This document shows positions 29,775 through 62,599 of a stretch of DNA of 64,000 nucleotides, piece by piece. Each line of letters starts with the position of its first letter. Position 1 is the first letter of the stretch. The translations under genes were made by a program, and so were the position numbers. The notes under the pieces are model-generated. The model did not search any database, had not been told where the DNA came from, and was given only the letters and a program-made list of their open reading frames with translations. The stretch lies in NCBI GenBank assembly GCA_950097015.1, contig CATNEN010000001.1, positions 4,836,001 to 4,900,000 on the forward strand. The letters are read 5' to 3'. The DNA is from Macrostomum hystrix. Taxonomy: Eukaryota > Animalia > Platyhelminthes.

Positions 29775-32700
29775 TGCTGCTGGAACAATTTCATTTCGCA
29801 CCAAGCCTTTTCATCCCTGCTCGCTTCCTACCGCAAGCGGAAAACTGCCCCATTCCGTCCAGCCGGCGAAAGTTTAGTTCCCTGTTTTTTAACGCCTGTT
29901 TTGTTTTCGTGTCAATCAAACTCCGCCGGCCCCGACTAAACTGCTAGAGAGAGATTCTCTGTAAGCCTGCATTATGGAGGCCGAGTTGATGTCGATTCCA
30001 GAGTCCAACCCCCCCCCCCAGTCCAGTCCGCTACCGCCATTTGTCTTGTCCGTTTGTTGGGTGGCGGGCGACTTTTCGGTTTTTTGTTTAACTGGCTGCT
30101 CGCAAACTTCTGTGCGGGCCCTGACCAACACCCACGGACACCCCTTCATCAATTCACTTATTGAAATGCATATTGGCTAAATAGGCGCCTTTCATTGTCA
30201 CTGTTTGACTGTTTGATTGATGACTGCGGAATAGATCTATTCTATTCCCCGTCTCCCCGTCTACCCTTTCCCCTCCCTCTTCGCTCTCTCTAGCCTCTCC
30301 CCTTTCTCCCCATTTTCTCCAACAGTCTCTCCCTGCGTCATCTCTTAAACCGATTTTCTGTTTATCTTATCAACTATTTTTGGGATTCTGTTTTCTGTCT
30401 GGCTAACAAAATGAAAATGTGCAGATTGTGTAAAAAATCCCAAAATCAGACGGGTTGTTTAGCAGAAAAAATTGATACTTTAAGATTCCTATTCAGCAGC
30501 AGCGGCGGCACACAGAATCTCAACCCAAGAAATGAAGCAGGTTAAACCTGGAAGACAGAAATGAGAGACATATATTCTGCTTTCCTGGCGCTCTCTCTCC
30601 TCGATGGTGTCAAAAAACAGGCCCGCTACGACGACCTGTTTTCTGGACTGAAGGGGCCGTATTGTCTGCTCCTGTACTGTAGCCACATTATATTTACAAT
30701 AAGTATTACTTTTTTTTCGATCGGATCCCCATTTCACCAGGATTTATCCTCAACCAGCAGTTCTCACAGCTCCCAACTGAGCCACTGCTCACTTTTCATT
30801 TTCTTGCTCTCCTCACTCGGCCGACCCGTATCGGTCTGCTAAACAGAAAGAGAGAGAGCGAGGGGGGTTCTTCAATTTATTGGGACTCTCTCAGCTTAAC
30901 AAAAAACCAGCTGGCAATAGTAAACAATCCTAGATTAAATTTTGGATCGTAAAATATATAAATAAAAAGATCTGTGCAATTTGAGAGTGAAAGCGCCTTC
31001 AGAAAGACACTTGTTAACCTGTTAGCAGTTTACACATGATGTGTGAGTCATCGCGCTGAATTATCTATTTTGCTTTTGTACTGCTTGTTCATTGGTTGAG
31101 GCTCCGGGTTTGGTCGCCCACCCCATGCCGAATCTTCGTCTCTCGAGCAGCCACCCCACTCCACTACCACTGTACATTTTAGCGTCGGTTAAACAGTGCC
31201 AAAAATCGATCGACCAAAGTAGTCCATAGACTGAGTGGCTGTACACAGTCTCTACATTTTGAGCCAAACTGCATTGTTTAGTTATATATTTTTTTATCTA
31301 CAGATTATAATAATAAATATAATTGCCGAAGGGCAGCGGGCAATGGCGTATCATGGTGACACTAGACCCGCAGCAGGCAATTCTGCCCATTTCGGTGACT
31401 CCTGAGCACACACGCACACAGATATCGTACGCAGGCACACGCTCACACAGGTGTGTACATCTGCCCTGACTTTCTCATCGTCAGGAAGTGTACACTTCAC
31501 TGAGCCTTATAGGTTGGCCCTCAAGGGCGTAAATTGCACGAAAAGCCGCCAAGCCTTCTCTCCGCGGCTGCGCCCCAAATAAATGTGGCCTCGCCGCGGA
31601 ATCGAGCTCAGGGACCTTGGTGCGAAAGGCAGATGCGTTAGACCGCTCTGTCACTCACCCACAATCTACCAATAGATAATCCGAGACATCGTATAGGTGG
31701 CGCAGGAGGTGCTTACCTCCTTATTGACAAAGCCTCATTCTCAACCCATGCCGCATCGCAGGATCTGGTGTACTGTGAGCAGTCCTGCACCCGGCTGCGC
31801 TCGTTTGCTCTGAACCGGCCCGGCTCCTGTCCGGCTGCCACGGATCCGCGAACCATCGCCTGCAGCGCCGCCTGCTCAACAGACATGGACTGCGTCTACG
31901 CCGAGGGCTACAAGTGCTGCAACACCGGCCTCTGTCGGGCCTGCCGACCTCCGGCGCCGTCGCGACAGCCGCTCGCGCTGCCGAGGTCGCCGACGCCCAG
32001 CCTGGTGAAGGTTCCCGGCGGCAGCGGCCTACTGCTTACCTGGCCATACGCCAATGCGACTAATGAGCATAGACTCAAGGAGCCTATTGTGTACGCCGTG
32101 CAAGCTCGCTACATGGTTGGTCGCAGGTTCGAATCCGGCCGGGCCAGCAGCTGGCGCAACGTCAGCCTGGTTGCCAGCAACGAAGTGGCCGTTGAAGAGG
32201 TCCGGACTGGGCACAATTATCAGTTCCGCGTGGCCGCTGTCACCCGGCTGGGCACAATGGGATTTGGGCCGCCGTCCGAGCCCTACTTGAGCGGCTCCCA
32301 GCCTCAGGCGCCAGGTGCTCCCAGTCTGCTCAGCCAAGGCCAGCTGAGAATCAGCTACTCAAGCGGCCGGGTCAGCGTGTGGGTCCATTGGAAACCGCCC
32401 TCCCAGAGCGAACTGCCCGTGCAGCTGTACAAGGTGAGAGGGTATATTCTATGAAGTTTGGGATTTGAGTAGAGATATTCTTATTTAGGTTTGTCATTTG
32501 AGAAGGGTTGTTACTTTTCCAAAAAACATTTCTCCCACCCAATCTCAGATTCGTTGGACCAAGGATCTGGGATTCGTGAATTCGCACGGCTCAGTGTTGT
32601 CTGTGACTCGATTCAGCAACTCCAGGCCTGGGGTGAGTATACCAATTGCTGCTCAGTCACCTGGTCTCAATTTAAATCGATAATTAAGACACGAAACAAA

Positions 32701-35700
32701 AACAAATGCTTTCCAGAATGCTCGAAGCTATTTGATTGAAAATTTGGAGCGAGGAACTTCCTACAAGGTTGAGGTGAGAACAAAAACTATTTACAAACTA
32801 GAATTTTTTATCATTTTTCTCGCAGTTTTCTTTGCATTTTTCAACACATATCGGCTTGCTTTTCACTTCCTTCTCGTCAGATCCCATTTATTTATTGTTT
32901 TATTTCTCCCAATCTCTGTGGCATTCCCAGAGGCTCGTAAAATTAGTCATAGTATTTTTATTGCTTTGAGCCCTAAAAAGTCACGCCTGTGAATATCACT
33001 TTATATTTATTGGGGGGTTTCAATTGTATGACCGGTAAAGCTTCGGCAATTATGGCATGGTGCCTACGTTGGCATTGTAAAGCAGCTGGAATGCTTGGCG
33101 TGGGAGAAATAGTCATAATTACATAATTGGATGGATTATCTGGGCAGTTTGAAGTATATTTTTTATTCCTTGTAATATTTTTTATCTATCAAACTGAACT
33201 TTAGTTCTTAGCATCGAAATATGCCACTTATAGTAAGCAATTGAGAAACGTTTTTTATTAGCATTAAAAAAAATCAAAATGCCTTTCAAACTAGCGACCT
33301 TCTATTCATCAATTCGACGCATGACCCAGGATCTGAGACACAGGAAAAATGAGATGTTGGGGGAATGAGACACGGGATGAGACATGGGAGAGATGAGACA
33401 TGGGAGAGATGAGACATGGGAGAGATGAGACACGGGAGAGATGAGACACGGGAGAGATGGGACATGGGAGAGATGACACACGGGAGAGATGAGATACGGG
33501 AAAGATGAGACAGTACGGGTTAGTCATAGACAATGCTGAATCGAATCCACAACCTGTCAACAACTTCCAAAGATCCGCGCTGCTTCATTCTGGGGCGATG
33601 AGACGCTGCTGGGCCCGCCAAACAGCATCTATGTGAGCACGCCTCATCTTGAGTCCGGTGGCAATGCTCTGCAGCCTCAGCAGCCGCCTCATCCTGACTC
33701 AGCTGTCTCATCATCTCGGTCTTCGCTAAATAACAACGACGAGGCCTGCTCAACGGCTGCTTCAGCGTCCAGTTACGACGCTGCTGAGCCTCACGAAGGA
33801 CCTCAGCAGACGGCGCCTGCCGCCCCCGCCACGGCCACACCGCTGCACATTCAGCCGCCAATTTACGAGGACAGCCAGCTGACAATCCAGATGCTCATTC
33901 TGGGCGTGTCGGTTGGCAGCGAGGAGACACTGTACCGAGTGCAGTGGCGCCGCCGGGTCTGCATCGACACACCCGGAAATGGCAAACTGTTCACAATGAC
34001 TGTGGTGGCCCAGGTGAGACTGCCGCACCTGCCTACTTCTCTGATTCCATCGAATCCTCATTCTTCAGCCTCACACCATCCTAAATGCCCTGTCAATTCG
34101 GATTGAAAAAAACTAGACTATCGCTAACTCGCTTAATTCCCCATTGAATTATTCTCAGAGCGGCTACTTCAAACTCACTGAGCTGCAATTCAACTGCCGC
34201 TACTGGGTCAGGCTGACACCTATCGATTCAACGTCTGGCTACCGGCTGCGGAACATCACCGCCTGCTTCCGGACGCCCTCCTGCGACGAAGTGAAAGTTG
34301 CTGCCGGGTCAGTGCCACCGGAACAATGTCCCGCAGCTTTGGGTAAGCTTTGATTTTGATCTCGATTCCCATCCTTAATCCAATACTAAATCCCATCACT
34401 CAGTCCCGTCCTCAATCCCATCCTCATCTCAGCCTAAATCCCATATTTAATCCCATACTCAGTCCCATACTCAATCCCTTTCTCAACCCCATACTCAATC
34501 CCATGCTTAATACCGTACTCAATCCCGTCCTCAATCCCATCCTCATCTCAGCCTAAATCCCATATTTAATCCCATACTCAGTCCCATACTCAATCCCATC
34601 CTGAATCCCATACTCAATCCCATCCTGAATCCCATATTCAATCCTATCCTGAATCGAATACTCAATCCCATCCTGAATCCCATCCTGAATCCCATATTCA
34701 ATCCTATCCTGAATCGAATACTCAATCCCATCCTGAATCCCATCCTGAATCCTATACTCAATCCCATCCTGAATCCCATCCTGAATCCCATCCTGAATCC
34801 CATACTCAATCCCATCCTGAATCCCATCCTGAATCTCATCCTGAATCCCATCCTGAATCCCATACTCAATCCCATCCTGAATCCCATCCTGAATCCTATC
34901 CTCCAGCCCAAACTGTTTCCAACTTTCAGAGGCCCAAACACCCGAGCGGCCAGGCCGCATCCACGTGAGCCAACTCGGCGTTCAACCCGACGGTGGCGGC
35001 TTGAGCTATCGAATCGCCTGGACACCGGCTAGGCCATCGAAAATGCCGGCCTCTTTAACTGACGCGTCGTCATCCTATCCGAGGCATCGACAGCCGCCGA
35101 CCATCAGCGGCTACTGCATCGTCTGGGGTCCGCGACTTGACGAACCAGTCAGCCAGTCCAGCTATCTGACTGCCGGCGGCGGTAATGGAGCTCCGGGCGA
35201 GCCCATTCAGCTGGGCTCCGGCGCAGCTGTGCCTCCTGGCAGTCAGGCTGGCCCCGATAGAAGAGTCAGCGCTGGCTTATATCCGCAGATGGATCCTGAC
35301 AAGGCCATCACTAGGGTGCTGGGCCGGGTGAGTCGGCTGCTCTGGCTTCCAATTTCTGATGCAAAATAGATTTCAATGTTTTACCGCCTCCGTTAAACTC
35401 CTTCAGGCCAACACCAGCTTAGTCATTCGCGACCTACGCCCAGGCACTCTGTACATTGTCCAGGTGCACAGTCAGGCATTTCACAACGGCCAGCTATTAG
35501 TCAGTCCTAGCAGTTCCTATTTCTTTGCCACGCCGCCCGGCGTTGGAAACGATGGCAACGATGGCCAAAGTCAATCTTTTCCTAGCGGTGGAGCTAGCGG
35601 TGAGTCTTGTGACATTGGATTTCTTGAGAGATATCTCTAGATTTCTCGTGGGGAATCCCTAGATTTATTGAGGGAAATCTCTACTTTTCTTGAAGGGAAA

Positions 35701-40120: not shown

Positions 40121-40579
40121 CCCTTATCCACAATATTTTGGATGTCAATTAGACAGGCGTATAGTCATAGGGGCTTCTTTGTAGTCTGTCTAGATTCCAG
40201 AACATTTTTTGGGAACACAGTTTCAAGTTAGTATTAACCGCTAGCTATTAATCATTTCTGAAGCACACGCAAGTTCCTACCAGATTTTGTCCAGTGCTTT
40301 TTAGAGCCAATCTATTGCGTGTTCCATGTTTCTCACCCTACTTAGGTGATTTATCACTAGCAGAAGCCTTGCATTGCCGATTCAACCAATCGGGACTGGA
40401 GTTTGTCAATAATCTGGATCACTTTTCTGCGATTGAGTTTGTCTTCTTTTAAAGTTTAAAAGCAAAGCAGAGTTTGAGTGCTACAAGCGCTGAGCATAAA
40501 TTTTACACCTGTTTGTTGTAGTTTTGCTAGAGCTCAGGACTAATATATCCGTGCGTAGATTGTCCAGTTAATTTCTGTG

Positions 40580-41445: not shown

Positions 41446-41527
41446 CAGCAAGGACTGCTAACAGACACGCGAATTCTCAACGCAGCTGCTAAGAAACACG
41501 GCTCAAACACAGCTGAGCTTAATTAAG

Positions 41528-41603
41528 ATGGGGCTGATTTCTAACAGCATCTTCGTGTCGGCTTTGCTGTTTGTTTTGCTGGCTCTGACGACTAACGCGA
41601 ACG
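41528..41603 (+). CDS. Signal-peptide exon of FADF precursor
   Basis: ATG, hydrophobic core IFVSALLFVLLAL, T-N-A cleavage-like site, consensus G|GTGAGT donor (phase 1). Confidence 0.8.
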
Positions 41604-43816
41604 GTGAGTTCCAACAATTATTGAAACTCAACTGCAGATGCGGAGAAAACTGGGTGGGAAAAATAGAGTGGGATAAAGAGAGTGGGACAAAGAGAGTGGG
41701 ATAAAGAGAGTATATAAATAGAGTGGGATAAAGAGAGTGGGATAAAGAGAGTGGGATAAAGAGAGTGGGACAAAGAGAGTGTGATAAAGAGAGTATATAA
41801 ATAGAGTGGGATAAAGAGAGTGGGATAAAGAGAGTGGGATAAAGAGAGTGGGATAAAGAGAGTGGGATAAAGAGAGTGGGATAAATAGAGTGGGATAAAG
41901 AGAGTGGGATAAAGAGAGTGGGATAAAGAGAGTGGGATAAAGAGAGTGGGATAAAGAGAGTGGGACAAAGAGAGTGGGATAAAGAGAGTATATAAATAGA
42001 GTGGGATAAAGAGAGTGGGATAAAGAGAGTGGGATAAAGAGAGTGGGACAAAGAGAGTGGGATAAAGAGAGTATATAAATAGAGTGGGATAAATAGAGTG
42101 GGATAAAGAGAGTGGGATAAATAGAGTGGGATAAATAGAGTGGGATAAAGAGAGTGGGACAAAGAGAGTGGGATAAAGAGAGTATATAAATAGAGTGGGA
42201 TAAAGAGAGTGGGATAAAGAGAGTGGGATAAAGAGAGTGGGATAAATAGAGTGGGATAAATAGGGTGGGATAAAGAGAGTGGGATAAATAGAGTGGGATA
42301 AATAGAGTGGAGAGTGAGATAAATAGAGTGGGATAAAGAGAGTGGGATAAATAGAGTGGGATAAAGAGATTGGGATAAAGAGAGTGGGATAAATAGAGTG
42401 GGATAAAGAGAGTGGGATAAATAGAGTGGGATAAAGAGAGTGGGATAAATAGAGTGGGATAAAGAGAGTGGGACGAATACAGAGGGATAAAAAGAGAGAG
42501 AGACAAATAGAGTGGGGAAGAGATGGGGTAGAAATAGAGGATAGAAAGAAAGGGTAGAAAAAGAGTTGAAAGAAACAGGGGGAGAGAAACCGAGGGGGAG
42601 AAACAAAGGGTAGAAAGAGGAGAATTGGTGGGGTGAGAAGGAGACACAGTGCGGCACAGTGTGACAGTGATTTTGTGCATAAACTGTCACTTCAATAAAG
42701 ATCACAAGGGGGCTGGTGCACCTGAGAGAGTTTTGTCTTCGGCAAGTTAAACGAACCGAATCCGTGACTTTCGAGTTGAAAATTTTGATCAGGTAGGCTT
42801 TAGGGCTCTCTGTTTTCAACATGTTGGTCTTATCAAATTAACCAGTTAAATCAGGGAAAGCATGCAGTCATGCCCAGTCTGCTTTAAAAAATAATCTAAT
42901 TTTTTCAAGTTTTCGTCTTGTTGGCGTCTAAATTGGGACATTTTGGTTCGCCGTTCAATTTACAGAGTCAGAACTGCTGGAATCTCATGCCAAGAAGCAG
43001 CAAGAACTTCTATCTGCACTTTCTTCAAAGAGATTCGCCGATTTTAACACGAAGAGATTCGCCGATTTCAAGAAAAAGAAATTCACCGATTTAAAAAAAA
43101 AGAGATTCGCAGATTTCAAGAAAAAAAGATTCACAGATTTCAAGAAAAAGAGATTCGCCGATTTCAAGAAAAAGAAATTCACCGATTTCAAGAAGAAGAG
43201 ATTCGCCGATTTCAAGAAGAAGAGATTCGCCGATTTCAAGAAGAAGAGATTCGCCGATTTCAAGAAAAAGAGATTCGCCAATTTTAAGGAGAGATTCGCC
43301 GATTTCAAGAAGAAGAGATTCGCCGATTTCAAGAAAAAGAGATTCGCCAATTTTAAGGAGAGATTCGCCGATTTCAAGAAGAAGAGATTCGCCGATTTCA
43401 AGAAGAAGAGATTCGCCGATTTCAAGAAAAAGAGATTCGCCAATTTTAAGGAGAGATTCGCCGATTTCAAGAAAAGATTCGCCGATTTCAAGAAGAGATT
43501 CGCCGATTTCAAGAAAAGATATGCCGATTTCAAGAAAAAAAGATTTGCTGATTTCAAGAAGAGATTCGCCGATTTCAAGAAAAAAAGATTCGCCGATTTC
43601 AAGAAAAAGAGATTCGCTGATTTTAAGAAAAAGAGATTCGCCGATTTAAAGGAGAGATTCGCCGATTTCAATTCGAAAAGAGTCGCCGCTTTTAGGAAGA
43701 GATTCGCCGATTTCAAGAAGAGATTCGCCGATGTAAAGAAGAGATTCGACGATTTTAAGAAAAAAAGAACAAACGATTCCATGAGAAAAAAAACCGCAGA
43801 TTTTTTCAGAATTTAG
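41528..43816 (+). CDS. Secreted multicopy FADF-peptide precursor, isoform a (308 aa)
   Basis: join(41528..41603,42966..43816), 927 nt. MGLISNSIFVSALLFVLLALTTNAN G|GTGAGT ... TTTACAG|AG gives ESELLESHAKKQQELLSALSSKR-FADFNT-KR-FADF-KKKK... about 32 units. Frame stays open, indels are multiples of 3, many synonymous variants; TAG at 43814, AATAAA at 43914. Confidence 0.8.
41660..42480. repeat. Minisatellite, 14-bp unit AGAGTGGGATAAAG (intron of FADF gene)
   Basis: Direct reading. Confidence 0.95.
42966..43816 (+). CDS. Terminal exon 2a: (KKKR-FADF)n coding repeat
   Basis: Phase-1 acceptor TTTACAG; unique spacer, then 24/21-bp coding repeats with no in-frame stop until 43814. Confidence 0.8.
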
Positions 43817-44029
43817 AGTTCTAGTTGAGCATAAATTAACGGATGATTTTGCCTACGTCAAACTTCTGCAACAAGAGATTTCGATTGTTTCAATTCTAAC
43901 TTTTACGAAGTTAAATAAATAATTTCTGAAAGATAAGAAATATGAAATACATACAGCCAGTTTTCATTTTCTATTATTGGTGCTAATTCTAAAAGAAATC
44001 TGCGATTTATAAAAACGCGGCTAGAGAGA

Positions 44030-45050
44030 GAGAGAGAAAAGGGTGAGACCATGAGAGAAGGGGTGAGACTGAGGGAAAGGGTGAGACAGCTAGGGAGAGA
44101 AATGGTGAGACAGTGAGAGAAAGGGTGAGACCATGAGAGAAAGGGTGAGACAGTGAGAGAGAAAGGGTGAGACAGCTAGGAAGAGAAAGGGTGAGACAGT
44201 GAGAGAAAGGGTGAGACCATTAGAGAAAGGGTGAGACAGTGAGAGAGAAAGGGTGAAACAGTGAGAGAAAGGGTGAGACAGCTAGGGTGAGAAAGGGTGA
44301 GACAGTGAGAGAAAGGGTGAGAAAGTGAGAGAGAAAGGGTGAGACAGCTAGGGAGAGAAAGGGTGAGACAGTGAGAGAGAAAGGGTGAGACAGCTAGGGA
44401 GAGAAAGGGTGAGACCGTGAGAGAGAAAGGGTGAGACAGCTAGGGAGAGAAAGGGTGAGACCATGAGAGAAAGGGTGAGACAGCGGGAGAGAAAGGGTGA
44501 GACAGTAAGAGAGAAAGGGTGAGACAGTGAGCGAGAAAGGGTGAGAAAGTGAGAGAGAAAGGGTGAGACCATGAGAGAAATGGTGAGACAGCGGGAGAGA
44601 AAGGGTGAGACAGTGAGAGAGAAAGGGTGAAACAGTGAGAGAAAGGGTGAGACAGCTAGGGTGAGAAAGGGTGAGACAGTGAGAGAAAGGGTGAGAAAGT
44701 GAGAGAGAAAGGGTGAGACAGCTAGGGAGAGAAAGGGTGAGACAGTGAGAGAGAAAGGGTGAGACAGCTAGGGAGAGAAAGGGTGAGACCGTGAGAGAGA
44801 AAGGGTGAGACAGCTAGGGAGAGAAAGGGTGAGACCATGAGAGAAAGGGTGAGACAGCGGGAGAGAAAGGGTGAGACAGTGAGAGAGAAAGGGTGAGACA
44901 GTGAGAGAGAAAGGGTGAGACAGTGAGAGAAAGGTTGAGACAATGAGAGAAAGGGTGAGACAGCGGGAGAGAAAGGGTGAGAGAGAAAGGGTGAGACAGT
45001 GAGAGAGAAAGGGTGAGACAGTGAGAGAAAGGGTGAGACAGTAAGAGAAG
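44030..45050. repeat. Minisatellite, about 20-24-bp unit GAGAGAAAGGGTGAGACAGT with a 374-bp higher-order duplication
   Basis: Direct reading; matching ORF-track peptides ending at 44348 and 44722. Confidence 0.95.
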
Positions 45051-45099
45051 AGGGTGTTAAAAAGAGATTTGAAAGCAGAGATTGGGATCAAGAGATTAG

Positions 45100-45443: not shown

Positions 45444-45673
45444 GATTTGACACTGACGAATCAACTTCCGAAGTAGATCTTCAGCGGGTGACATCGCCTG
45501 AATCGAAGAGATTCACCGACTTCAAAAAGAAGAGATTCGCCGACTTCAAAAAGAAGAGATTCGCCGACTTCAAAAAGAAGAGATTCGCCGACTTCAAAAA
45601 GAAGAGATTCGCCGACTTCAAAAAGAAGAGATTCGCCGACTTTAAAAAGAAGAGATTCGCCGACTTCAAATAG
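45444..45673 (+). CDS. Alternative terminal exon 2b, open part (isoform b, about 101 aa, 7 peptide copies)
   Basis: TGTTGTCCCCCAG| (G)FDTDESTSEVDLQRVTSPESKR-FTDF-KKKR-(FADF-KKKR)5-FADFK*; phase 1, compatible with the 41603 donor. Confidence 0.6.
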
Positions 45674-48112
45674 AAGAGATTCGCCGACTTCAAAAAGAAG
45701 AGATTCGCCGACTTCAGAAAGAAGAGATTCGCCGACTTCAGAAGAAGAGATTCGCCGACTTCAAAAAGAAGAGATTCGCCGACTTCAAATAGAAGAGATT
45801 CGCCGACTTTAAAAAGAAGAGATTCGCCGACTTCAAATAGAAGAGATTCGCCGACTTCAAAAAGAAGAGATTCGCCGACTTCAGAAAGAAGAGATTCGCC
45901 GACTTCAGAAGAAGAGATTCGCCGACTTCAAAAAGAAGAGATTCGCCGACTTTAAAAAGAAGAGATTCGCCGACTTCAAATAGAAGAGATTCGCCGACTT
46001 CAAAAAGAAGAGATTCGCCGACTTCAGAAAGAAGAGATTCGCCGACTTCAAAAAGAAGAGATTCGCCGACTTCAAAAAGAAGAGATTCGCCGACTTTAAA
46101 AAGAAGAGATTCGCCGACTTCAAAAAGAAGAGATTCGCCGACTTCAAAAAGAAGAGATTCGCCGACTTTAAAAAGAAGAGATTCGCCGACTTCAAATAGA
46201 AGAGATTCGCCGACTTCAAAAAGAAGAGATTCGCCGACTTTAAAAAGAAGAGATTCGCCGACTTCAAATAGAAGAGATTCGCCGACTTCAAAAAGAAGAG
46301 ATTCGCCGACTTCAGAAAGAAGAGATTCGCCGACTTCAGAAGAAGAGATTCGCCGACTTCAAAAAGAAGAGATTCGCCGACTTCAAATAGAAGAGATTCG
46401 CCGACTTCAAATAGAAGAGACTCGCCGACTTCAAATAGAAGAGACTCGCCGACTTCAAAAAGAAGAGATTCGCCGACTTCAAATAGAAGAGATTCGCCGA
46501 CTTCAAAAAGAAGAGATTCGCCGACTTCAAAAAGAAGAGATTCGCCGACTTCAAAAAGAAGAGATTCGCCGACTTTAAAAAGAAGAGATTCGCCGACTTC
46601 AAATAGAAGAGATTCGCCGACTTCAAAAAGAAGAGATTCGCCGACTTCAGAAAGAAGAGATTCGCCGACTTCAAAAAGAAGAGATTCGCCGACTTCAAAT
46701 AGAAGAGACTCGCCGACTTCAAATAGAAGAGATTCGCCGACTTCAAAAAGAAGAGATTCGCCGACTTTAAAAAGAAGAGATTCGCCGACTTCAAATAGAA
46801 GAGATTCGCCGACTTCAGAAGAAGAGATTCGCCGACTTCAAAAAGAAGAGATTCGCCGACTTCAAATAGAAGAGATTCGCCGACTTCAAATAGAAGAGAT
46901 TCGCCGACTTCAAATAGAAGAGACTCGCCGACTTCAAAAAGAAGAGATTCGCCGACTTCAAATAGAAGAGATTCGCCGACTTCAGAAAGAAGAGATTCAC
47001 CGACTTCAGAAAGAAGAGATTCGCCGACTTCAAATAGAAAAGATTCGCCGACTTCAAAAAGAAGAGATTCGCCGAATTCAAATAGAGAAGATTCGCCGAC
47101 TTCAAATAGAAAAGATTCGCCGACTTCAAAAAGAAGAGATTCGCCGAATTCAAATAGAAAAGATTCGCCGACTTCAAATAGAAGAGATTCGCCGAATTCA
47201 AATAGAAGAGATTCGCCGACTTTAGAAGAAGAGATTCGCCGACTTCAAATAGAAAAGATTCGCCGACTTTAAATAGAAGAGATTCGCCGACTTTAAATAG
47301 AAGAGATTCGCCGACTTCAAATAGAAGAGATTCGCCGACTTTAAATAGAAGAGATTCGCCGACTTCAAATAGAAAAGATTCGCCGACTTCAAATAGAAGA
47401 GATTCGCCGAATTCAAATAGAAGAGATTCGCCGAATTCAAATAGAAGAGATTCGCCGACTTCAAAAAGAAGAGATTCGCCGACTTTAAATAGAAGAGATT
47501 CGCCGACTTCAGAAAGAAGAGATTCGCCGACTTTAAATAGAAGAGATTCGCCGACTTCAAATAGAAAAGATTCGCCGACTTCAAAAAGAAGAGATTCGCC
47601 GAATTCAAATAGAAAAGATTCGCCGACTTCAAATAGAAAAGATTCGCCGACTTCAAAAAGAAGAGATTCGCCGAATTCAAATAGAAAAGATTCGCCGACT
47701 TCAAATAGAAGAGATTCGCCGAATTCAAATAGAAGAGATTCGCCGACTTTAGAAGAAGAGATTCGCCGACTTCAAATAGAAAAGATTCGCCGACTTTAAA
47801 TAGAAGAGATTCGCCGACTTTAAATAGAAGAGATTCGCCGACTTCAAATAGAAGAGATTCGCCGACTTTAAATAGAAGAGATTCGCCGACTTCAAATAGA
47901 AAAGATTCGCCGACTTCAAATAGAAGAGATTCGCCGAATTCAAATAGAAGAGATTCGCCGAATTCAAATAGAAGAGATTCGCCGACTTCAAAAAGAAGAG
48001 ATTCACCGACTTTAAATAGAAGAGATTCGCCGACTTCAGAAAGAAGAGATTCGCCGACTTTAAATAGAAGAGATTCGCCGACTTCAGAAAGAAGAGATTC
48101 GCCGATTTTTAG
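45674..48112 (+). pseudogene. Expanded, stop- and frameshift-interrupted remainder of exon 2b (about 100 x 24-bp units)
   Basis: Unit AGATTCGCCGACTTCAAAAAGAAG with frequent AAATAGAAG variant and occasional 22-bp units; ends GCC GAT TTT TAG at 48112; AATAAA at 48377. Confidence 0.6.
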
Positions 48113-48518
48113 TCCAATAATCAAAACGTTATACAGGTTTCTTCTTTCGAAAAATCCTAATGAAATGCGACTTTTTTTCTCGACCTGAACAACAATTTTA
48201 AATCGAACCTTGTGATTAGAGAGTTGAAAAATTACTTCTAATATTTTGTCTGCCATAAAAGCGATTGGTGAACGAGCTAAACACAAGTGATTCGGATATT
48301 AGCTGTAAGCTACGAGTACTTACTCTAGTAACATCGAACGGATATAAATATTATAATGTAAATGTAACAGTCTTTAAATAAATGATCTAAAAACAACAAA
48401 ACGACGGATTTTTTTGCGATAAAATTGCACTACTTAGCAGCCATTAATTTTCTCTCCTAGTTAAAAACATGTCTTAATTCTAATTTGGCAAGTCTTACTT
48501 TACGAGCTGTAACTCAAC

Positions 48519-49118: not shown

Positions 49119-49357
49119 AGCTAAACGAACTAGCGCATGCTTTGTGCCACAGAGCTACTGTAAACATTTTATTAGGAAATGTGTTCCCAAATCTGCAAGT
49201 GCCGAGCTAATATCAGTTGTAACTCCATGTCGCCGTCCTGTTTGATAAGGCCAGCGTGGTGTGACTTTTACAGGCCCGAAATCTGAGCTTTCGGCCTGCT
49301 TGCAACCTTCCAACTTTCCAGGAATGTGCGACGTCTGCTGGAGCAACTGTTGCTGCC

Positions 49358-57300: not shown

Positions 57301-59166
57301 TTTATCCCATTCCTATTTTCTGTCTACTTTTATCCCATTCCTATTTTCTGTCTACTTTTATCCCATTCCTATTTTGTCTACTTTTATCCCAATCCCGTTA
57401 GGTGTCTCAAAAGAACTACGCGATAACAGCTCTCCCACCGACCCCCCAACCCTTCAATACTGACTGAGTGTAGACTAAGGAGCTAGGCACATGTAGCTAA
57501 TCGCAGGTAGTTAGTTTTGAAATATGGTAAATAATTAAGAACTTTTTGCAGTTTCTGCTTTAATAAGCTGCTACAGCAGAGGGAGAAAATAAAGTTAAAT
57601 TTGAGAATAGCCAACAGAACCCTGGTTAGAAGAAGTGTTCGCAAAAAAGGCCAATGTATAAATGCAGCGAAATGTGCAGCAAGCAGTGTACTGTGTAAGC
57701 TCGCAGAAACCATTGAAAGTGAAGACCGTACCGTGGCATTGGAATTTTATATATGCACAACATAATTAATTAGCCAATAAACTGCTAGCCTAAATAAGAA
57801 TATCATTTTACTGAAATCATTCATGCATTCAGCACTAGCAAATTAAGCGAGCAATTTCAAATAACTGTTTAGAACTGTGCATTAAATAACTGAATATTAC
57901 ACTGTGCCACATTAGCTCCAGCCTAGATAGTTAGATAGGCTAGATACTATTGTTATGGATTGATGCACTCACTCATTCACTCACTGACTCACTCATTCAC
58001 TCAGTCAGTCAGTCAGTCAGTCAGTCAGTCACTAACTTACTCACTCACTCACTGACTCACATTCACTCACTCACTCACTTACATTCACTCACTCACTCAC
58101 TTACATTCACTCACTCACTCACTCACTCACTCACATTCACTCACTCACTCACATTCACTCACTCACTCACTCACTCACTCACTCACTCACTCACTCACTC
58201 ACTCACTCACATTCACTCACTCACTCACTCACATTCACTCACTCACTCACTCACTCACTCACTCACTCACTCACTCACTCACATTCACTCACTCACTCAC
58301 TCACTCACATTCACTCACTCACTCACTCACTCACTCACTCACTCACTCACTCACTCACTCACTCACTCACTCACTCACTCACTCACTCACTCACTCACTC
58401 ACTCACTCACTCACTCACTCACTCACTCACTCACTCACTCACTCACATTCACTCACTCACTCACTCACTCACTCACTCACTCACATTCACTCACTCACTC
58501 ACTCACTCACATTCACTCACTCACTCACTCACTCACTCACATTCACTCACTCACTCACTCACTCACATTCACTCACTCACTCACATTCACTCACTCACTC
58601 ACTCACTCACATTCACTCACTCACTCACATTCACTCACTCACTCACTCACTCACTCACTCACTCACTCACATTCACTCACTCACTCACTCACTCACTCAC
58701 ATTCACTCACTCACTCACTCACTCACATTCACTCACTCACTCACTCACTCACATTCACTCACTCACTCACTCACTCACTCACTCACTCACTCACATTCAC
58801 TCACTCACTCACTCACTCACTCACTCACATTCACTCACTCACTCACTCACTCACAATATGGTCAGATAAAAACTCACATTTCTAGTGGTAGCCTCCAGCT
58901 GTCGCCTGAGCAGTTCCTTCTGAGCTGTTAGGCTGGTGAGCTTGCGATAGGCGCTACACCTTGAGCACTTGTTAGAGTGCAGCTGATTTATCTCCGCAGC
59001 CGTGTGGCCCCAGCCGCTCTGCAATTCGGGCGCTATTCTCGGATCCAACCAGCTCGTGGACTTGCTGTTGTGATCCACAAAGTAGATCTTAGCCTCCTGA
59101 TCGCTGTAGGCCATCTCCCATCCTGGCGGCAGTGGGCAGGCGTCCATGAGAGGCTGCAGTGAGGCG
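54195..59166 (-). CDS. yki: YAP/Yorkie-like transcriptional coactivator, last three exons (5' exons not found, probably beyond 64000)
   Basis: complement(join(54195..54376,54961..55126,58878..59166)). WW domain [11 protein letters not shown]...[17 protein letters not shown], coiled coil [15 protein letters not shown]|EFLMRQE, LATS site plus degron [13 protein letters not shown], acidic tail. Confidence 0.85.
54421..54910. repeat. Minisatellite, 25/30-bp unit TCTAGAGGTGTGATCTAGATGATGC filling the last YAP intron
   Basis: Direct reading. Confidence 0.95.
54961..55126 (-). CDS. yki: YAP-like phosphodegron exon
   Basis: TTTCAG| [56 protein letters not shown]|GTGAGT. Confidence 0.85.
55150..55390. 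repeat. Minisatellite, 24-bp unit CTAGAACAGATCCCAAAGCAGAAT
   Basis: Direct reading. Confidence 0.9.
55975..57390. repeat. Minisatellite, 28-bp unit CTTTTATCCCATTCCTATTTTCTGTCTA, about 50 copies
   Basis: Direct reading. Confidence 0.95.
57965..58852. repeat. (CACT)n microsatellite with CACATT interruptions
   Basis: Direct reading. Confidence 0.97.
58878..59166 (-). CDS. yki: YAP-like WW plus coiled-coil exon
   Basis: Acceptor CCGCAG| at 59166 (alternative CTGCAG| at 59153); donor AAT|GTGAGT at 58877, phase 0. Confidence 0.85.
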
Positions 59167-59282
59167 CTGCGGTTCAGCGATTGTGGAAGATTATTAGTTC
59201 ACGGTCTCATTGTTATTTGTTAAAATAGTATTGTTTTCCTAGCTTAATAATTATAGAGTCAACTGCCTTAATTTAGCTTAGC

Positions 59283-61850: not shown

Positions 61851-62599
61851 TTTGTACCTTTAACCCTTTTCTCCTCCGAAGTGGTAAAAACCTTTTTCCC
61901 ATTATTGTTACTTTGCATCTAGCAACGAAGCTTAAATTTGCAGATTTTAAGGACAGGGTTGATATTAAATTTTTAGAGATAGAAATTTAAATCCGACGAG
62001 GAAATAATAAAACCAAGATTAGAGATAACAATAACTAGTACAGGGTAGTCTTGTAAATGTTAGGGCACAGTAAATAGGTCAATAAAGATGCTAGAGGGCA
62101 TGGTGGACTTGTTTGACATTATTAGATAATTCTAAAGTAACAACAGTCAGGTGCCCAACAACTGGATCAAGCAACCTTTCAACCTTTATTGCTTTCATAT
62201 TGCTACCCATAGTGAGGAAATGTTGACAAAATTTCCATAAAACTTTTTAACTAGCCAGCAAGACTGGATGGTTTTATAAGAGGACATTTGGCTTTCGACA
62301 AACCCCAACTAGCTAGCGACGATAAACAAAACAGATACACAGAATTTCAATTGTAACTAAGTAGCTAAGATAAACGAAAAATCGCAGGATTGCATTTCTT
62401 TGTGACCATTGAGTGAGTTATGTAGCTAGCAAACTCAACTCGTAGCTAGATTTTATAATATATAACAGCAACACAATTCACCGATATTCACCGTTACAAT
62501 TTTCAATTTCAATTATAAAATTTTTAACTAACTTTAAAACAAAAATTACAGAGTGATAAATTGAGATGGTTTAAAGAGAAAGGAATAAGAGGAGAGACA

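What the first reader, a model, noticed from the sequence alone, without database searches (positions are those of the whole stretch)
45444..48382. Second, alternative terminal exon of the FADF precursor
Seen: an independent phase-1 acceptor (TGTTGTCCCCCAG|) leads into a different acidic spacer GFDTDESTSEVDLQRVTSPES-KR-FTDF-KKKR-FADF..., followed by about 108 units ending GCC GAT TTT TAG (48112) and its own AATAAA (48377). I found no intact signal-peptide exon between 43919 and 45444. Inference: one signal exon serves two mutually exclusive last exons (exon duplication plus alternative polyadenylation), giving isoforms with about 32 versus 7 peptide copies, a possible dosage switch.
Basis: partly seen in the sequence, partly recalled or inferred. 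Interest (0 to 1): 0.78.

Follow-up and report, generated by a model that had tools for sequence, protein, structure and literature searches.

The report
Flatworm peptide gene's decaying spare exon
A Macrostomum flatworm gene for a likely neuropeptide precursor carries a second, likely ancient, copy of its last exon, but only the first copy is seen spliced in public data and about half of the second copy's 109 repeats hold stop codons, so it is likely a minor or unused alternative and not a dosage switch.

Summary
The sequence features are real. The window is from a Macrostomum flatworm. The gene has a 5' non-coding exon, a signal-peptide exon, exon A (32 FADF-type units) and exon B (45444).

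Exon B looks like an old duplicate of exon A. Both have a phase-1 acceptor exactly 62 nt before the first KR-F, and their spacers differ as coding DNA does (identity 8, 11 and 4 of 20 by codon position).

In 4 of 4 public runs (one study) contigs join the signal exon to exon A. No join to B appears, but contigs cannot show absence.

B's array is mostly broken: 52 of 109 units carry TAG and 6 are frameshifted, leaving 7 coding units. It looks recently amplified, like the window's other minisatellites. Its AATAAA is no better than chance.

Duplication is supported; use of B and the 'dosage switch' are unshown. A shared first exon with duplicated last exons is known in neuropeptide genes. My paper searches did not find the FADF peptide, and the scan had not noted it on other DNA.

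The parts
40499..40579 (+). Exon 1 (5' non-coding), 3' part.
   Evidence: loose ends before the signal exon in 4 of 4 runs; the 30 letters shown map to 40549-40578.
41446..41603 (+). Exon 2: 82 nt of UTR plus ATG 41528 and a predicted 25-residue signal peptide; phase-1 donor after 41603.
   Evidence: covered exactly by one contig in each of 4 runs, 0 other letters. Hydrophobic core mean hydropathy 3.15 over 11 residues. No dedicated signal-peptide predictor was available.
42966..43919 (+). Exon A, the last exon seen spliced: 62-nt spacer, 32 FADF-type units (16 flanked by basic pairs on both sides), stop 43814-43816, AATAAA 43914. Predicted precursor 308 aa.
   Evidence: join 41603/42966 in 4 of 4 runs (3 of 4 with 31 or more letters on both sides).
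44030..45056 (.). Purine-rich 22-nt minisatellite filling most of the gap between exons A and B; no signal-exon remnant.
45444..45505 (+). Exon B acceptor and 62-nt acidic spacer, likely the diverged homologue of exon A's spacer.
   Evidence: same length and phase; 23 of 62 nt identical ungapped (shuffle p 0.026); codon positions 1, 2, 3 match at 8, 11, 4 of 20.
45506..45673 (+). Open part of exon B: 7 units (FTDF, then 6 FADF) ending at the first TAG. Predicted precursor 101 aa if spliced.
45674..48112 (+). Rest of the 24-nt array: stop-bearing and frameshifted units, internal block duplications, last unit ending in an in-frame TAG (likely the original stop).
   Evidence: 50 intact, 52 TAG, 6 short, 1 end, of 109. 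(390-nt exact repeat at lag 527). (1 singleton change in 2448 nt against 8 in 480 nt for exon A).
48113..48382 (+). AT-rich tail with AATAAA at 48377; candidate 3' end of exon B.
   Evidence: Chance-level. No detectable similarity to exon A's tail.

Best explanation
Exon B is likely an old duplicate of the last exon of a Macrostomum gene for a predicted secreted multi-copy peptide precursor; exon A is the form seen spliced, and B is likely a minor or lately silenced alternative whose repeat array has likely turned into a minisatellite behind a new stop codon. Shown: exon 1 joins exon 2 and exon 2 joins exon A; B has an intact phase-1 acceptor and 7 open units. Inferred steps: (1) A signal peptide sends the precursor into the secretory path, where convertases and a carboxypeptidase would cut at the Lys/Arg runs and release unamidated FADF. 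(2) The last exon was duplicated long ago and both copies stayed coding while their spacers diverged. (3) An AAG-to-TAG change arose in one B unit and spread by unequal exchange, so that everything past the first stop became free to expand and shift frame. I put 'still spliced at a low level' and 'no longer used' at about even odds within this reading.
For: Same 62-nt distance and phase in A and B. Spacer identity 19 of 40 at codon positions 1+2 against 4 of 20 at position 3 (Fisher p 0.035; codon-shuffle p 0.015). In a substitution-only simulation at that divergence the AG and an open frame both survive in 3.6% of 50000 trials. Intact B units encode the same 8 residues as A's commonest unit and differ from it at synonymous sites. 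B's last unit ends in an in-frame TAG. Signal exon joined to A in 4 of 4 runs; in 3 of 4 the contig runs 116-127 letters into A without a break. From how such contigs are built (my own knowledge) this argues against a B branch of similar abundance in those samples; it is a weak inference. 58 of 109 B units are broken and the array is nearly free of singleton changes, in a window where TRF lists 73 rows of tandem repeats. A congener has a near-identical 24-nt-period array, and M. lignano has precursors with 8-residue KR-AALADF/AALSDF repeats, so the peptide type is not a one-off.
Against: The homology statistics are modest: p 0.015-0.035, spacer protein score p 0.077, and slid alignments reach 21-22 matches against 23. 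Introns and 3' tails of A and B show no similarity. B has no lesion in its acceptor, spacer or first 6 units. Six intact units at the start has p 0.009 against the whole array, though only 0.09-0.17 against the 5' part where stops are rarer, so B may be alive and selected. All four runs come from one study at depth 4-12, and they are not on record as RNA; I infer RNA because the contigs skip GT-AG introns. Peptide processing and neural expression were not tested.
Confidence: 0.6

Rival explanations
1. B is a live, regulated alternative last exon: some cells splice the signal exon to B and make a short precursor with a different N-terminal spacer peptide and about a third as many FADF copies.
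For: Intact acceptor, phase and spacer frame after long divergence. First 6 units intact. The layout is known in other neuropeptide genes (PMC6585902, passages), and that paper notes that low read numbers often hide such splice forms.
Against: Only the join to A was seen. Both exons give the same peptide, so there is little to switch. The AATAAA is chance-level. The position of the first stop fits array turnover.
Confidence: 0.22
2. B is what remains of a whole-gene tandem duplicate that had its own promoter and signal exon and lost them, so it never shared exon 2 and is now a pseudogene.
For: A and B flanks share no detectable similarity, as for long-separate paralogues. A hydrophobic patch with an upstream, out-of-frame ATG lies at 43942-44010.
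Against: The patch is matched by 6% of 326 non-repeat tiles (10% of the 110 AT-rich ones). It has a stop before any donor, and its likeness to the real signal peptide is reached by 19% of tiles. No remnant of exon 1 or 2 stands above shuffles. Only about 0.5 kb of non-repeat DNA lies between A's AATAAA and B.
Confidence: 0.14
3. B is an ordinary minisatellite seeded from exon A's repeat, or an assembly artefact, and its acceptor and spacer are chance.
For: The window is full of tandem arrays. The spacer statistics are modest.
Against: A and B arrays share 0 31-mers (528 and 578 distinct). B has its own recurring variants and block duplications. The exact 62-nt match, phase, codon-position pattern and in-frame final stop would all have to be coincidence.
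Confidence: 0.04

Closest known systems
Beetle DH37/DH47 gene (PMC6585902, passages read)
   Same: A first coding exon is spliced to either of two later exons thought to have arisen by exon duplication. The same paper describes phase-1 introns easing such splicing in the periviscerokinin genes.
   Different: There both forms are shown and give different hormones. Here only one join is seen, both exons give the same tetrapeptide, and the second is mostly a stop-laden repeat array. No sequence relationship is claimed.
Lymnaea FMRFamide gene (titles seen in the reference list of PMC8172996; details recalled, paper not held)
   Same: Mutually exclusive, alternatively spliced transcripts of a multi-copy peptide gene.
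   Different: Different, amidated peptides from each exon, with neuron-specific use shown. Here the peptide is the same, has no amidation glycine, and use of the second exon is not shown.
M. lignano precursors A0A1I8G648 and A0A1I8IA06
   Same: Same genus; hydrophobic leader-like stretch; 8-residue repeat ending in ADF or SDF before Lys-Arg; no amidation glycine; no Pfam family.
   Different: Peptides are AALADF/AALSDF, not FADF, and the flanks are His-rich. Similarity is confined to the low-complexity repeat, so kinship is a lead only.
Achatin precursors (PMC6188537, passages and supplement part 6 read)
   Same: Unamidated tetrapeptides in long uniform tandem arrays between Lys-Arg pairs. FAD occurs in mollusc GFAD.
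   Different: Achatins start Gly-Phe and FADF does not. M. lignano already has a separate achatin precursor with GFIN repeats (PAA66935.1).
Acoelomorph AWDF and LWDY multi-copy peptides (PMC6188537, passages)
   Same: Short unamidated, evenly spaced copies ending Asp plus an aromatic residue; confirmed there by mass spectrometry.
   Different: Defined by Trp-Asp, which FADF lacks; different phylum; no homology tested.

Membership tests
Multi-copy neuropeptide precursor | N-terminal signal peptide | tested here: met
   25-residue leader with an 11-residue core of mean hydropathy 3.15; judged by hydropathy only.
Multi-copy neuropeptide precursor | Repeated short peptides between dibasic cleavage sites | tested here: met
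   16 FADF copies flanked on both sides in exon A and 5 in exon B.
Multi-copy neuropeptide precursor | Spliced transcript exists | tested here: met
   Exon 1, exon 2 and exon A joined in contigs of 4 of 4 runs, one study.
Multi-copy neuropeptide precursor | Processed peptide, neural or secretory-cell expression, receptor | not testable with these tools
   Needs peptidomics, in situ hybridisation and receptor assays.
Alternative last exon sharing a signal exon (DH37/DH47 type) | Two same-phase acceptors downstream of one donor, each giving an open frame | tested here: met
Alternative last exon sharing a signal exon (DH37/DH47 type) | The two exons are homologous duplicates | tested here: met
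   Same 62-nt spacer and codon-position pattern; modest statistics.
Alternative last exon sharing a signal exon (DH37/DH47 type) | Both junctions occur in RNA | tested here: inconclusive
   Junction to A in 4 of 4 runs and to B in 0 of 4; contigs show presence, not absence.
Alternative last exon sharing a signal exon (DH37/DH47 type) | Each exon has its own working poly(A) site | tested here: inconclusive
   AATAAA present after both, but at chance level: 33% and 54% of shuffles.
Alternative last exon sharing a signal exon (DH37/DH47 type) | Two-exon layout conserved in relatives | tested here: inconclusive
   One congener has an array on a 1443-nt contig; the alignment did not extend into exon A's spacer and no sequence was returned. 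The B-spacer query could not be run.
Achatin | Tetrapeptide beginning Gly-Phe (GFGN, GFAD, GFIN) | tested here: not met
   Units read Arg-Phe-Ala-Asp-Phe-Lys, with no Gly.
AWDF/LWDY peptides | Trp-Asp followed by an aromatic residue | tested here: not met
   No Trp in either array's open frame (definition).

The most novel reading that the evidence does not exclude
Exon B is a live alternative last exon in which a stop-bearing repeat unit is interleaved with coding units inside a fast-changing minisatellite. Each unequal crossover would move the first stop and reset how many FADF peptides the short precursor yields: a heritable, length-mutable dial on peptide dose, in a peptide family my searches did not find described.
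Probability: 0.1. Interest if true: 0.6.

Novelty: new member of a known kind. Interest (0 to 1): 0.3.

Why it matters
The architecture is known, so the finding as framed is of modest interest. Two things are worth keeping. First, an expressed Macrostomum precursor for an unamidated tetrapeptide, with look-alike ADF/SDF precursors in M. lignano, is a candidate signalling family in a lab flatworm genus where RNAi and in situ work are routine (PMC4490696, passages). Second, exon B is a clear snapshot of a coding repeat turning into a minisatellite once a stop codon frees it, with the likely original stop still in frame at its far end. If B is still spliced and the first stop varies between animals, it would be a simple, testable case of repeat turnover setting peptide copy number.

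Tried and rejected
RNA for exon B: laying runs X1-X4 on B's tail (48092-48517) gave no cover in 4 of 4. By the tool's own terms this is no evidence. None of the 4 listed holders is on record as RNA.

Genome resources: no whole genome is held for this window. DNA searches of the genome index with the signal exon (only 26-40-nt matches) and with the start of exon B (no match shown) found no orthologue. The B-spacer protein query against the congener B11 did not complete.

Protein searches: exon A gave one unrelated low-complexity hit and exon B none. Of 115 representative hits, 2 turned out to be M. lignano ADF/SDF repeat precursors. One more (P0055) is a different multi-copy precursor; most of the rest look like compositional matches, judged from the 45 rows printed and 8 sequences read. 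The Pfam hit of exon A to Exonuc_VII_L (18.6 bits, cut-off 35.9) was rejected. The Atlas did not take exon A and gave only a 0.76 lead for P0102. A repeat pattern scan of metagenome contigs found 0.

Readings rejected: stop-codon readthrough or a changed genetic code, because six 23-nt units break the frame anyway. A second signal exon at 43942. A third peptide exon near 61934, which is a single chance motif. B as part of the downstream minus-strand gene; unlikely, because a minus-strand AATAAA at 49173 lies beyond B, though that gene's end was not mapped. Achatin or AWDF membership.

Literature: 'FADF' with 'neuropeptide precursor' gave 0 papers. With 'neuropeptide' it gave 2 unrelated listings. 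AALADF/AALSDF/RFADF/FADFK gave 13 listings, none on flatworms by title; one passage read shows AALSDF inside an Aplysia peptide. The main flatworm neuropeptide survey (PMC2749192) is not held, so a prior description there, or in supplements I could not see, is not excluded.

Full report
Organism. The gene upstream carries WAP and fibronectin III domains. Its only two hits among longer proteins are Macrostomum lignano proteins at 72% and 51% identity, and one member of that cluster is named Anosmin-1. The window is therefore from a Macrostomum flatworm. It is packed with minisatellites: TRF lists 73 rows in 64 kb.

Gene structure shown by data. Four public runs from one study hold the signal exon. 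In each of the 4, one contig covers 41445-41603 with no other letters. Its loose ends map upstream to an exon ending at 40579 and downstream to the start of exon A at 42966. The contigs skip two GT-AG introns, so I read these runs as spliced RNA although they are not on record as such. In 3 of 4 the contig runs 116-127 letters into exon A; in the fourth only 25. So the gene is expressed, the signal exon is exon 2, and the A form (predicted 308 aa) is real. No loose end pointed to exon B. Contigs drop rare forms and depth was only 4-12, so this limits how common B can be in these samples but does not exclude it.

The observation. The acceptor at 45444, the acidic spacer, the 109-unit array, the in-frame final TAG and the AATAAA are all as described. 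The acceptor has the best pyrimidine tract of the 21 AG sites in the 260 nt before the array. The AATAAA is not informative: 54% of shuffles contain one. No second signal exon was found. A hydrophobic patch at 43959 is matched by 6% of 326 control tiles and is out of frame with the nearby ATG.

Is B a duplicate of A? Likely yes. In both exons the first Lys-Arg-Phe codons begin exactly 62 nt after a phase-1 acceptor. Ungapped, the spacers match at 23 of 62 nt (shuffle mean 15.6, p 0.026), split 8, 11 and 4 of 20 across codon positions; positions 1+2 against 3 give p 0.035 and a codon shuffle p 0.015. That is the pattern of coding DNA diverged to saturation at third positions. In a substitution-only simulation the AG and an open frame both survive such divergence 3.6% of the time. 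Intact B units encode the same eight residues as A's commonest unit with different synonymous codons, and the arrays share no 31-mer. Against this, the p-values are modest, slid alignments score nearly as well (21-22 matches), and introns and tails show no similarity. I conclude that the duplication is old and that B was coding for most of its history.

What B is now. Of its 109 units 52 carry TAG in place of a lysine codon, 6 lack a base, 50 are intact and 1 is the end unit; stops rise from 14 of the first 54 units to 38 of the last 55. The first stop comes in unit 7, so a spliced B message would give a 101-aa precursor with 5 fully flanked FADF copies against 16 from A, followed by about 2.7 kb of mostly repeat tail. 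The array has block duplications (390 nt exact at lag 527) and 1 singleton change in 2448 nt against 8 in 480 nt for A, so it was likely amplified recently. The simplest account is that a stop arose in one unit, spread by unequal exchange, and left the downstream units free of coding constraint. The last unit, still ending in an in-frame TAG, likely marks the original end. Six intact units at the start is unlikely against the whole array (p 0.009) but not against its 5' part (p 0.09-0.17), so selection on the open part is neither shown nor excluded.

Relatives. A congener (handle B11) has an array at 82-88% protein identity with 24-nt period over about 17 units, running to the end of a 1443-nt contig. 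The alignment starts at the first Lys-Arg and does not include A's spacer, and no sequence was returned. Whether it is an A-type or B-type exon is open. M. lignano has two precursors with 8-residue KR-AALADF/AALSDF repeats. Their likeness is confined to the repeat, so they are a lead for a shared family, not proof.

How it would work. Inferred from the general biology of such precursors (my own knowledge, with the role of a PC2-type convertase in M. lignano from PMC4490696, passages): the signal peptide routes the precursor to secretory granules, convertases cut after Lys-Arg, and trimming of trailing lysines frees unamidated FADF. None of this was tested. Target cell and receptor are unknown; a gland peptide is as possible as a neuropeptide.

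Comparison with known systems. A first coding exon spliced to either of two duplicated exons is described for beetle DH37/DH47 (PMC6585902, passages). Mutually exclusive FMRFamide transcripts in Lymnaea are known to me from recall and from titles in a reference list. In those cases the exons give different peptides; here they give the same one. FADF fails the defining motif of achatins, and M. lignano has its own achatin precursor (PMC6188537, passages and supplement part 6). It also lacks the Trp of AWDF/LWDY peptides. Searches for the peptide in the paper library found no description, but the main flatworm survey was not held. Earlier notes of this scan hold nothing on this locus or peptide.

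Verdict. Observation confirmed; interpretation partly supported. Old duplicated last exon with A dominant and B minor or silent: 0.60. Regulated live alternative: 0.22. Orphaned paralogue: 0.14. Chance or artefact: 0.04. New member of a known kind; interest 0.3.

Noticed in passing
window 31642-35369 (+): Exons of an anosmin-1 (KAL1)-like gene with WAP and fibronectin III domains; best hits are M. lignano proteins. A useful synteny anchor for finding the peptide gene in relatives.
   Followed up: partly
window 58854-59198 (-): Exon with a WW domain (PF00397, E 2.4e-09) of a minus-strand gene. A minus-strand AATAAA at 49173 may be its end, which would make it converge on the peptide gene; its other exons were not mapped.
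   Followed up: partly
window 43942-44030 (+): Just after exon A's AATAAA, an ATG and an out-of-frame hydrophobic run resemble a broken signal exon, but 6-10% of control tiles do as well.
   Followed up: yes
P0102 and P0044 (M. lignano A0A1I8G648, A0A1I8IA06): Apparent multi-copy precursors with AALADF/AALSDF repeats and His-rich flanks, no Pfam family. AALSDF also occurs inside a peptide of the Aplysia ALNP precursor, which also yields GdFFD (PMC11277431, one passage); chance or kinship untested.
   Followed up: partly
window 43028-43780 (+): Exon A's array mixes 24-nt and 21-nt units and includes FANFKE units that lose a cleavage site, giving longer predicted peptides; both ends of the array are more degenerate.
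   Followed up: partly
whole window: Much of the non-coding DNA consists of minisatellites, each with its own unit of roughly 12-49 nt; at 2.6 kb exon B's array is the longest listed.
   Followed up: no
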